From the NCBI GenBank assembly GCA_964016885.1, contig OZ024740.1, positions 382,912,001-382,976,000 of the forward strand: 64,000 bases of DNA. Direction: 5' to 3'. Under the pieces are notes generated by a model. It was not told the DNA's origin, did not search any database, and was given only the letters and a program-made list of their open reading frames with translations. Origin of the DNA: Eledone cirrhosa (lineage: Eukaryota). Positions within the stretch are counted from its first letter, which is position 1; every line of letters starts with the position of its first letter. Of this stretch, positions 1 to 57,502 are shown piece after piece. Position numbers and translations under genes: made by a program.

Positions 1-937
1 CGTCAAACGGATGGACAGGAGAAATGACATTGGGTTTGTATATTGGACGGTGGAATCTCAGATCACAGAGAACCATGTCATGATCAGAGAGTAGAGTTTT
101 CTCCACTGCAATATTGTGGATATTGTCAGTGTGATTGCTGAAAATTAAGTCTAGGACGTTTTTGTGGCACCTCGTTGGTTCGAGAACTAGTTGGGATAGG
201 AAGAAATCATCCATGAAGTCAAGAAGCGATTCCACAGCTTCCCTGTCAGAGGTTGAGGCAGAAGAACCTGGTGGCAGGGTGTTTGTGGACCAGTCAACTC
301 CGGGGAGGTTGAAGTCCCCCATCATTAATATGTTGTCAGGGTGACACTCTTGGATGAAACACTTTATGCTGTTGAGGCATTCCTTGAAGCATGGTACAGG
401 CGTTTGGGGTGGCCTATAGAGCCCAACTACTAATAGGTTGTTGGTTTGACTGAATACAGTGACTGCCTCACAGTATCCATTAGTGAATATGTTCATAGCC
501 TCTGTTGAGAAAGAATTATGGACATAAATGGCAGTTCCGCCCTTTCTTCTGCCAGCGCGATCAGCACGGATGGCTTTGAAATTTTTCACTTTCACCTCGG
601 CTTCCAAGTGGAGGTTACTGAGATGGGTTTCAGTGAGGACGAAGAAAGGGATGTGGTTTGGATGGACATCAATCCAGTCCTCCAGGAATTTGATCTTCCA
701 TTTTTGAGTATTGGTGGAAGGGCTGATGCCTTGGGCGTTAAGCAAAAATGTAGAGGCGAGAGTGGATGGTTTTAATTGTTTTGGTGTGTTGTTAATTTGT
801 TTGTTTGTTAATGGCAGCAATGGGAGTTTGTGCAGTGGGGTGATAGTGGAGGGTGGTGCTGGGTGATAGCTCGAATGTTTTTTTCCAGTTCTTTTGCCAG
901 ATTCATTATGGCTAAAAAAGAGGAAGAAGTTTCCTGT
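1..937 (-). CDS. LINE ORF2 N-terminal apurinic-like (APE/EEP) endonuclease domain, partial, with no initiator AUG
   Basis: Manual translation, open from 937 to base 1: LLNAQG...FVLTETH...RADRAGRRKGGTAIYV...GLYRPP...MGDFNLPGVDW...EPTR..NVLDLIFSN...LSDHDMV. It is absent from the ORF track because the stop lies outside the window. Confidence 0.93.
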
Positions 938-1965
938 TTAGAAGACTGTTGGTGACTGTGGTAGTGGTTATTTTTATGTAGGTTATGGTTTTTGTTTTTG
1001 CTTTTATTTTTAATTTTATTTTCATTTATCCGACGGGTCCCCGGGAGATGGGTAAAGGGACAATCCCGGTCTAAACACAATCTGTCTCGCAGGGAAAAAC
1101 GGCAGATTTGTGGATTCCTTGTTTGAGTTATTGGTGGTTGTGTTGGTGTTAAATTAGAGTATGTATTATGGTGGTGGCTGTTTGTGGGGATAGATCGTTT
1201 TGTCCTAGGTAAATGGGTGAATTTGCAGCCACTATCCGTACATATTCTATAGCGTAGAGAGTAGCGGCAAATGATGGGGTTTCGAGTGGGTGGGTATGTG
1301 GGTGTGGGTGTTGTGAGAGGTGTAGATGATGGTTTGGGTAGGATTTGACGACCTTTGTGGACTGTGGGAGGGAGAGTTCTTGTTCTGGTATTAGAAGGTA
1401 AATTCCTTGACATAGCAGTAGACAAAAATGTTGTAGTAGTAGTAGTAGTAGTAGGCAGAGATGTTGGCAGTGGTGATGATTGGACTGCTGGGCCAGAGAA
1501 AGGATGTGGCGTTTCATGCTGTGAGACAGAGGCTACTGGGGGGTCAATAGTTTCATTTAGTAGATCGGCCATTGTTGATGAATCAAGGAGTGGTTCACAC
1601 TGTTGTTGTCGTTGTTGTTGTTGTTGTTGCTGTTGTTGTTGTTGTAGCTGTTGTTGTTGTTGTTGTTGTTGCTGTTGTAGCTGCTGTTGTTGTTGTTGCT
1701 GCTGCTGGACAGCATTCGAAGAGAAAACACACCGTAGTTTATCCAAATGTTTATTGATTAATTTAAAAGCAATTTCGATTTGCTTTAATTTATTTTGAAT
1801 CTGTTGTTCAGATCGAGTTTTCAAAAATTGAACTGTACGTTTAGCAATGTCGTTCAGAGATGAAGCATCTATATTTTCTGTTTGGGAAAGGCAATGCCAT
1901 GTGTTTATTAGAATGTCGATTTCATTATCAGACCAGTTCTGTTTGGATTTTTGCTGGTTAGCCAT
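808..1965 (-). CDS. LINE ORF1 protein (385 aa): Myb/SANT-like N-terminus, polyQ, P/T-rich linker, two CCCH zinc fingers
   Basis: N-terminus WSDNEIDILINTW...RSEQQIQNKLKQI. Fingers CRYSLRYRICTDSGCKFTH and CRFSLRDRLCLDRDCPFTH (C-x8-C-x4-C-x3-H). It lies directly upstream of the endonuclease. Confidence 0.85.
   Translation of the reverse strand: MANQQKSKQNWSDNEIDILINTWHCLSQTENIDASSLNDIAKRTVQFLKTRSEQQIQNKLKQIEIAFKLINKHLDKLRCVFSSNAVQQQQQQQQQLQQQQQQQQQQLQQQQQQQQQQQRQQQCEPLLDSSTMADLLNETIDPPVASVSQHETPHPFSGPAVQSSPLPTSLPTTTTTTTTFLSTAMSRNLPSNTRTRTLPPTVHKGRQILPKPSSTPLTTPTPTYPPTRNPIICRYSLRYRICTDSGCKFTHLPRTKRSIPTNSHHHNTYSNLTPTQPPITQTRNPQICRFSLRDRLCLDRDCPFTHLPGTRRINENKIKNKSKNKNHNLHKNNHYHSHQQSSKQETSSSFLAIMNLAKELEKNIRAITQHHPPLSPHCTNSHCCH
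1601..1707 (-). repeat. (CAA/CAG)n trinucleotide repeat encoding polyQ in ORF1
   Basis: (TGT/TGC)n on the + strand. Confidence 0.95.
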
Positions 1966-2086
1966 TCTAGTTTTGAGTGTGTGTGTGTTTTAGTTAAGTA
2001 TTTCAATATATATATATTTTTTTTTTTTTAAATTTATTTTTGATTTATTTTTGTTTTTTGTTTTTCTTGTGTGTGAGTGAGAAGCG

Positions 2087-3259
<1,173 letters not shown>

Positions 3260-3333
3260 GTTTAATATAGACATGGCGTCTACGGAACTAGAACTGTTTC
3301 ATTCAAAAAACATCACCAGAAAGCGTTAAACTA

Positions 3334-54842: not shown

Positions 54843-55091
54843 TTATATATATATATATGTTCGGTATGTATCGGCCATGTCTAACCTAACAACACCAACT
54901 GACGGAGTCTTTCAAATCAGTATTTGTACACCATGGCCCACTCAAATAAAGAGTTATTTTTTACGGAGACATATACTTGTTCAGGAGGTATATCTGGGAT
55001 TTCTTGGAGGAGTTTTACCAAAGACGTTTGGAATGTTCTTTATCTGTTTCTGTTTGAATTTATTTTGGTGTAATGTTAAAGAGAGCGTGAT

Positions 55092-57502
<2,411 letters not shown>

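What the first reader, a model, noticed from the sequence alone, without database searches (positions are those of the whole stretch)
808..940. AUG-less LINE ORF2 overlaps ORF1 in the -1 frame across two canonical slippery heptamers
Seen (- strand): the endonuclease frame opens after a TAA at 940-938 and overlaps the last ~43 codons of ORF1. Its first in-frame AUG (496) lies inside the endonuclease, after the essential N and E motifs. The overlap contains U_UUU_UUA (919-913) and A_AAA_AAC (883-877), both correctly phased in ORF1. Known: these are the HIV-1 gag-pol and MMTV gag-pro -1 frameshift heptamers, whereas characterised LINEs (L1, SART1) use reinitiation or translational coupling. Inference: ORF2 is made as an ORF1-ORF2 fusion by programmed -1 frameshifting. 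I saw no strong downstream stimulatory hairpin.
Basis: partly seen in the sequence, partly recalled or inferred. Interest (0 to 1): 0.8.

Follow-up and report, generated by a model that had tools for sequence, protein, structure and literature searches.

The report
HIV-type frameshift site in animal LINEs
This young, abundant jumping gene (a LINE) has no start codon for its second gene, and it and its distant relatives all keep the same seven-letter slippery sequence that HIV uses, so the second protein is likely made when ribosomes slip back one base, a route that the reviews I read do not list for animal LINEs.

Summary
ORF2 opens after TAA 940-938, overlaps ORF1 by 43 codons in the -1 frame, and its first AUG (496) lies past the endonuclease's N and E motifs. 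It is no indel: 599 genomic copies carry the site and only 6 have a fusing extra T. The first heptamer, U_UUU_UUA (919-913), is the real signal. It is in phase and invariant in 8 of 8 related families (endonucleases 32-68% identical), 0-7 codons after the ORF2-frame stop in 7 of 8. Among 145 further ORF1 proteins with the FL motif, none has a residue before F that forbids the heptamer (background 26%). The second heptamer, A_AAA_AAC, is kept only in this lineage. This copy has no 3' stimulator; three relatives have a hairpin at 7-8 nt. Best reading: low-level programmed -1 frameshifting giving an ORF1-ORF2 fusion (about 0.8, untested). Rivals: non-AUG reinitiation, polymerase slippage, splicing. 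The closest statement in print is a review legend on Dictyostelium TRE5-A/TRE3-A. This scan already noted similar sites on other DNA (e1-9568866, e1-8041403).

The parts
1966..2158 (-). 5' UTR of the element, AT-rich; two other copies extend some 25 or more bases further 5'
808..1965 (-). ORF1, 385 aa: weak Myb/SANT-like N-terminus (below the Pfam cut-off), poly-Q, two C-x-C-x-C-x3-H fingers, FL motif and amphipathic tail
1213..1269 (-). first CCCH-type finger of ORF1
   Evidence: sequence
1048..1104 (-). second CCCH-type finger of ORF1, aligned to the clade's last finger
   Evidence: (zf-C3H1, E 0.83)
938..940 (-). TAA closing the ORF2 frame, 6 codons before the slippery site
   Evidence: kept in older subfamily copies
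913..919 (-). U_UUU_UUA slippery heptamer in ORF1 phase (reads F-L in ORF1), followed by G at 912; predicted -1 frameshift site
904..906 (-). AUG in the ORF1 frame, not the ORF2 frame; reads AUA in the related family of run X10
877..883 (-). A_AAA_AAC heptamer in ORF1 phase; kept within this lineage only; possible secondary shift site
808..810 (-). ORF1 stop TAA, 71 nt before the endonuclease N motif
761..912 (-). [quoted passage not shown]
629..748 (-). first endonuclease motifs (FLLNAQG to TE), upstream of the first AUG and under purifying selection in the ORF2 frame
494..496 (-). first in-frame AUG of ORF2, codon 148, inside the endonuclease
2..937 (-). ORF2 frame (APE endonuclease here; RT beyond the window edge; 1045 codons in all, intact; 3' tail of a 10-base unit then TA repeat)
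2160..3330 (.). (TA)n microsatellite flanking the 5' end; a like tract flanks the 3' end

Best explanation
The LINE's ORF2 has no AUG before its endonuclease and is likely made by programmed -1 ribosomal frameshifting at the U_UUU_UUA at 919-913. Shown: layout, phase, conservation of the heptamer, selection on the AUG-less part of ORF2. Inferred: most ribosomes read ORF1 to its stop at 808 (385 aa); a small share slip back one base on the heptamer, skip ORF1's 34-residue tail, read a flexible linker and go on into endonuclease and RT, giving a fusion of about 1390 aa that carries ORF1's zinc fingers. This would set a high ORF1 to ORF2 ratio, as Gag to Gag-Pol. With no 3' structure in this family the rate is predicted to be low; the lineage's second heptamer may add to it.
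For: Heptamer in ORF1 phase in 8 of 8 CCCH-ORF1 families: this one, a second family in the same genome, and 6 from 7 metagenome loci. They form one clade (96/89) with endonucleases 32-68% identical. TTTTTTAG is the only invariant block in 72 aligned columns. Codon choice xxT TTT TTA has a joint chance of 10^-13.7 from each element's codon use, families treated as independent, which they are not fully; 0 in-phase TTTTTTA in 2607 other ORF1 codons. The ORF2 frame closes 6, 2, 35, 0, 1, 0, 7 and 2 codons before the heptamer and stays open 34-89 codons after it; joint chance 10^-8.4 when ORF1's amino acids are held fixed. Of the best 150 of 2555 ORF1 clusters, 145 have FL plus helix; 0 of 145 have E, Q, K, M or W before F (linker background 25.8%), with D 39/E 0, H 20/Q 0, N 15/K 0, a bias absent one residue earlier. 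Hairpins of 32 nt start 8, 8 and 7 nt after the heptamer in L068, L070, L074, within the 5-9 nt spacer given in PMC5009743. 8 of 10 displayed changes in run X10 between the ORF1 stop and the first AUG are silent in the ORF2 frame (read by hand).
Against: No stimulator in this family or in 4 other families of the 8; the hairpin gives no consensus fold over the four-family subclade and only 67% of cells pair. For this family alone an open overlap is unremarkable (P 0.25). In run X10 the 6 changes inside the overlap favour ORF1's frame (3 silent in ORF1, 1 silent in ORF2, 2 in neither), so selection on the linker peptide is not shown, and the heptamers escaping 6 changes is not significant. 3 of 8 families have an AUG in the linker, one as a UGAUG stop-start (L070). 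The ORF1 stop lies 8-23 nt before the endonuclease N motif in 7 of 8 families, which also suits reinitiation. The protein test shows a pyrimidine-ending codon, not T, and the search profile already held S, N, D at that column. No RNA, ribosome-profiling or peptide evidence.
Confidence: 0.8

Rival explanations
1. Ribosomes finish ORF1 at 808 and reinitiate at a near-cognate codon in the ORF2 frame (for example AUU 14 nt on, or CUG/UUG just before the stop), as described for L1 and SART1; FL is kept for the protein's sake.
For: ORF1 stops lie close to the endonuclease start in 7 of 8 families, near-cognate codons are nearby in most, and L070 has UGAUG. Reinitiation is the route the reviews give for L1 and SART1 (PMC2881922; PMC3894237). 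A scan note describes a UUGA junction in a Naegleria LINE (e1-677439, unchecked).
Against: It does not explain the fixed codons, the pre-F bias in 145 proteins, the ORF2 frame opening right at the heptamer or the hairpins. No start codon is shared among families; L068 has none between -30 and +30 nt. Stops in ORF1's frame need L, I, V or M codons in ORF2's, which first become common at the endonuclease's first strand, so their clustering needs no reinitiation (inference).
Confidence: 0.11
2. The frame change happens in the RNA: RNA polymerase II adds a U on the T6 run in a small share of transcripts, which then encode the fusion.
For: 6 of 599 copies have T7, as would follow if slipped RNA or RT slippage were copied. 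PMC5009743 notes that polymerase and ribosomal slippage are hard to tell apart.
Against: The T7 copies are individually diverged, not a subfamily, and may be assembly errors. Cis preference (recalled) should enrich fused copies far above 1% if only slipped RNAs made ORF2. The run is exactly six T plus A in all 8 families, not a longer run; hairpins sit at ribosomal spacing.
Confidence: 0.04
3. TTTTTTAG is a 3' splice acceptor and ORF2 is read from a spliced or trans-spliced mRNA.
For: The invariant block includes the G in 8 of 8 families and in L101 and L111; 132 of 145 proteins have a G-starting codon after L; the ORF2 frame need not be open upstream of an acceptor.
Against: 13 of 145 proteins cannot have AG there. 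Several families have purines and other AGs just upstream. No spliced retrocopy: two pattern searches found 3 copies, two with a point change and one 5'-truncated, against 599 unspliced. No joint at 911/912 among the rows shown for run X10.
Confidence: 0.03
4. The overlap is an indel or assembly error in one copy, or a dead element.
For: The site is a homopolymer run.
Against: 40 of 40 scored copies identical over 600-1100; 599 exact copies; intact 1045-codon ORF2; the same layout in an older subfamily, in run X10 and in 7 other families.
Confidence: 0.01

Closest known systems
HIV-1 gag-pol -1 frameshift signal
   Same: Identical heptamer U_UUU_UUA (PMC5009743), in phase with the upstream RNA-binding protein, AUG-less enzyme gene in the -1 frame; 3' stem-loop at 7-8 nt in three relatives.
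   Different: The host element is a non-LTR retrotransposon with no protease domain found, so the fusion would stay whole; this family has no 3' structure; nothing is tested.
Dictyostelium TRE5-A / TRE3-A (APE-type non-LTR retrotransposons)
   Same: A review legend says both need a -1 frameshift to translate ORF2 (PMC5911963, Fig. 1 legend, passage read; primary papers not read).
   Different: Amoebozoan, tRNA-gene targeting, ORF2 ends in a zinc finger; the passage names no heptamer or experiment. Here the site is conserved over a wide animal-type clade.
L1 and SART1 ORF2 translation
   Same: Bicistronic LINE RNA, ORF2 made at low level and dependent on ORF1 translation (PMC2881922; PMC3894237).
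   Different: They reinitiate or couple at or after the ORF1 stop (UAAUG in SART1) and give a separate ORF2 protein; here the ORFs overlap by 43 codons and a fusion is predicted.
CR1/L2 lineages of the Jockey superfamily, possibly CR1 subgroup 2 (type V ORF1 with PHD) of Metcalfe and Casane 2014
   Same: APE plus RT, no RNase H found, short tandem 3' tail; relatives have a PHD-like finger in ORF1. The paper lists an 11-member CR1 subgroup with a PHD and under 10% of ORF1 explained (PMC4120745).
   Different: The paper's main text has no 'CCCH', 'frameshift' or 'overlap'; this family has lost the PHD and has a Myb-like start. Identity with that subgroup was not tested; its supplements were not opened.
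Paramecium LINE groups 1-3 and Drosophila HeT-A
   Same: Recoding proposed in non-LTR elements (PMC5405496; PMC5009743).
   Different: +1 shift, reinitiation or readthrough in Paramecium; a shift within gag in HeT-A, which has no RT.

Membership tests
Programmed -1 ribosomal frameshift cassette | X XXY YYZ heptamer in phase with the upstream ORF | tested here: met
Programmed -1 ribosomal frameshift cassette | Downstream ORF in the -1 frame, open from the heptamer on, with no start of its own | tested here: met
   5 of 8 families AUG-less before the endonuclease
Programmed -1 ribosomal frameshift cassette | Heptamer conserved beyond protein-level need | tested here: met
   first heptamer; second heptamer not clade-wide
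Programmed -1 ribosomal frameshift cassette | 3' stimulatory stem-loop or pseudoknot 5-9 nt downstream (usual, not universal per PMC5009743) | tested here: not met
   absent in this family; predicted in 3 of 8 families; covariation weak
Programmed -1 ribosomal frameshift cassette | Measured shift above background, trans-frame peptide | not testable with these tools
   no RNA holder listed; needs reporter, ribosome profiling or mass spectrometry
APE-type non-LTR retrotransposon (LINE) | ORF2 with APE endonuclease and RT | tested here: met
   PF14529 and PF00078 above cut-off
APE-type non-LTR retrotransposon (LINE) | Dispersed copies, 5' truncation, simple 3' tail, no LTR | tested here: met
   (2 of 5 fetched copies 5'-truncated; no dedicated LTR search was run)
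CR1 lineage of the Jockey superfamily | RT phylogeny groups with named CR1 references | not tested
   no named reference LINEs were held; the tree has unnamed endonucleases only; assignment is from recalled resemblance
SART1-type UAAUG coupling | ORF1 stop overlapping an ORF2 AUG | tested here: not met
   no AUG near the ORF1 stop in this family; UGAUG in 1 of 8 families
3' splice acceptor | Obligatory AG, pyrimidine tract, spliced products | tested here: inconclusive
   AG in 8 of 8 DNA junctions but impossible in 13 of 145 proteins; 0 spliced retrocopies; no RNA

The most novel reading that the evidence does not exclude
A large, old clade of animal LINEs (over 2500 ORF1 clusters at 50% identity match its profile) expresses ORF2 as an uncleaved ORF1-ORF2 fusion by HIV-type -1 frameshifting, some with a retrovirus-like hairpin and some with a bare heptamer; slippery sites in neighbouring lineages with other ORF1 types suggest frameshifting is a general third route of LINE ORF2 translation.
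Probability: 0.7. Interest if true: 0.85.

Novelty: new variant of a known kind. Interest (0 to 1): 0.72.

Why it matters
How LINEs translate ORF2 is described in the reviews read as an open question, answered only by reinitiation or coupling in L1 and SART1. A seven-base site conserved across a wide clade makes a different answer testable with one reporter. If true, many AUG-less ORF2 annotations in such LINEs are N-terminally wrong, the working enzyme carries ORF1's RNA-binding fingers (a simple route to cis preference), and the Gag/Gag-Pol way of setting protein ratios is shared by LINEs, not confined to LTR elements and viruses. The family is very young here (hundreds of identical copies), so it is a practical model.

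Tried and rejected
ORF1 homologue search by shared words: 0 of 39 candidates scored; the profile search then found 2555 clusters. Viral contigs: nothing. Prokaryote genome contigs: 39 pattern hits, 0 of 39 related. Sequencing runs: no RNA holder listed, which says nothing on expression; of 7 runs laid only X10 held a related family (X6, X7, X11 low-depth pieces; X9, X16 short or low-complexity matches; X13 none). My first estimate that the overlap stays open by chance at 10^-20 was inflated by composition and is replaced by 10^-8.4. A '+1 class with AUG' as a control was dropped: L117 is identical to L114 in the endonuclease yet shows the other frame relation, so some are indels. Decay rates in old copies do not separate the heptamers from the rest of the overlap (12%, 17%, 18%), as expected for dead copies. 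The AUG at 906 is in ORF1's frame and changed in run X10, so rejected as ORF2's start. A clade-wide stimulator was not supported. One first-pass pick (P0071) was a wrong FL and was corrected by a helix filter. Cluster look-up gave no names or organisms. The SART1 and L1 primary papers were not held.

Full report
The element. The window's first 2.2 kb hold the 5' half of an intact LINE on the minus strand, set in TA microsatellite. ORF1 runs 1965-808 (385 aa). The ORF2 frame opens at 937 and runs 1045 codons beyond the window, with an APE endonuclease and an RT above Pfam cut-offs. The family is very young: 40 of 40 scored copies, the best of 1190 candidates, are identical over 600-1100, and 599 places carry the exact 32 bases that start at the heptamer.

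The observation. Every coordinate is right. ORF2 overlaps ORF1 by 43 codons in the -1 frame; U_UUU_UUA (919-913) and A_AAA_AAC (883-877) are the only in-phase heptamers in ORF1. The first ORF2 AUG (496) comes after the ETHL motif that aligns with solved LINE endonucleases (the roles of these residues as catalytic are recalled). The AUG-less stretch must be translated: in a related family in run X10, 8 of the 10 displayed changes between 808 and 496 are silent in the ORF2 frame (which showed 40 of 121 rows; read by hand). It is not an indel: of 65 loci aligned (some are the same place fetched twice), 62 span both heptamers, none alters the first and 2 alter the second; 6 of 599 copies have a seventh T and each is separately diverged.

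Relatives. A metagenome scan with an endonuclease alignment gave 65 loci. Seven carry an ORF1 with tandem CCCH fingers (the profile was built from six of them plus L142, so this counts members, it does not discover them), which are 6 families. A second such family lies in the same genome (the site is present in 30 of 30 loci). With this element that makes 8 families in one clade (96/89; endonucleases 32-68% identical). All 8 overlap ORF2 in the -1 frame and read xxT TTT TTA G in ORF1 phase; these eight bases are the only invariant block in a 72-column alignment. The ORF2 frame closes 0-7 codons before the heptamer in 7 of 8 and 35 in the other, the usual mark of a shift site. Codon choice has a joint chance of 10^-13.7 and no in-phase TTTTTTA occurs in 2607 other ORF1 codons; the open overlap has a joint chance of 10^-8.4 with ORF1's residues fixed, though 0.25 for this family alone. 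These products treat families as independent and overstate the case.

A wider test without DNA. The ORF1 profile matches 2555 clusters at 50% identity. In the best 150, 145 have FL followed by a helix. The heptamer needs the codon before F to end in T, which rules out E, Q, K, M and W: 0 of 145 have one, against 25.8% in the linker, and the pairs split D 39/E 0, H 20/Q 0, N 15/K 0, while one residue earlier they are 19/13, 2/22 and 24/6. Helix capping could favour S, D, N, T (recalled) but not H over Q. Limits: the profile held S, N and D there, the test cannot tell T from C, and 2405 clusters were not seen. Five proteins lacked the motif; one of them, P0145, runs from the fingers into the endonuclease in one frame and then ends, probably a decayed copy.

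The second heptamer. It is absent from the overlaps of the other 7 families. It persists in an older, roughly 78% identical subfamily in this genome and shows no change in run X10, but with 6 changes in 130 bases that is not significant. It may be a lineage-specific helper or just K-N in ORF1's tail.

Stimulator. None is predicted here. L068, L070 and L074 have 32-nt hairpins 8, 8 and 7 nt after the heptamer (-11.9, -13.6, -17.0 kcal/mol; z -1.6, -1.8, -2.4), matching the 5-9 nt spacer in PMC5009743. On four sequences the named structure has 3 of 12 pairs with two-sided change and 67% of cells paired, and no consensus fold emerges. This is a hint for one subclade only. The same review describes shift sites with no 3' structure.

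Other lineages. Among the other 58 loci, 12 LINE loci have about 150 or more ORF1 codons in the -1 relation: 9 have an in-phase heptamer in the overlap (U_UUU_UUA in L101, L102, L111; U_UUA_AAC in L077; A_AAA_AAC in L085, L107, L114; G_GGA_AAC in L114, L115; A_AAU_UUU in L097) and 3 have none (L079, L098, L112); L128 looked bacterial and was left out; the rest have broken, cut or differently framed junctions. Single long overlaps can hold a heptamer by chance, so these are leads.

Mechanism and rivals. The most likely reading (0.8) is low-level -1 frameshifting at 919-913, giving a fusion of 1388 aa in which ORF1's helical tail is replaced by a linker. Reinitiation (0.11) stays alive because ORF1 stops sit 8-23 nt before the endonuclease N motif in 7 of 8 families, 3 of 8 have an AUG in the linker and one has UGAUG, but it leaves the heptamer unexplained. 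TTTTTTAG also looks like a splice acceptor (0.03); against it, 13 of 145 proteins cannot have the AG and no spliced retrocopy turned up against 599 unspliced. Polymerase slippage (0.04) cannot be excluded without RNA.

What is known. Nine literature searches plus one on ORF1 types found no report of a conserved slippery heptamer in animal LINEs; the library lacks most subscription papers and Repbase Reports, so prior mention is possible. I read passages of PMC5009743 (first 300,000 of 449,034 characters held), PMC5911963, PMC5405496, PMC2881922, PMC4120745, PMC7175516, PMC2699510, PMC5006619, and parts 1-2 of 3 of PMC3894237; no supplements. The nearest statement is a legend that Dictyostelium TRE5-A and TRE3-A need a -1 frameshift. 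The MMTV source of A_AAA_AAC is recalled; one search lists it among the most shift-prone heptamers. The clade name CR1 is a recalled resemblance, not tested. This scan's own unchecked notes report the same kind of site in two other genomes; I had reached this reading before seeing them and do not count them as support.

Verdict. Real, conserved and probably functional; a known recoding device in a class of element where the reviews I read give other routes. New variant of a known kind; interest 0.72.

Noticed in passing
window 54923-57168 (-): Decayed 3' part of another related LINE, 49-68% amino-acid identity to this ORF2's RT region, broken by a TA tract.
   Followed up: no
L131-L160, e.g. 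L142:778-3242: A second, older CCCH/PHD-ORF1 LINE family in the same genome, 34 matches, with the same slippery site and an AUG-less ORF2.
   Followed up: yes
L031-L035 ends; window 2160-3330: All 5 fetched copies end in a 10-base unit repeated 1-3 times and run into (TA)n; the family may target or seed TA microsatellites.
   Followed up: no
window 884-878 (-): The A run also forms A_AAA_AAA in ORF2 phase, so a ribosome already shifted could slip again into a closed frame.
   Followed up: no
window 870-950 (-): The heptamer itself can pair with downstream purines in a long hairpin (-14.3 kcal/mol, z -1.4); not in stimulator position.
   Followed up: partly
L070 near 2311: Has the slippery site with hairpin and also a UGAUG stop-start at the endonuclease start: two possible routes in one element.
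   Followed up: partly
L077:905, L114:2083, L115:2219, L101:992, L111:1221: In-phase heptamers in LINEs with other ORF1 types (esterase-like, PHD-like and others by eye); G_GGA_AAC is shared by L114 and L115.
   Followed up: partly
window 1744-1941 (-): This ORF1 has a weak Myb/SANT-like start (E 0.002) where relatives have a PHD-like finger: an ORF1 N-terminal swap that left the 3' junction intact.
   Followed up: no
protein P0145: ORF1 fingers and endonuclease start in one frame, ending early.
   Followed up: partly
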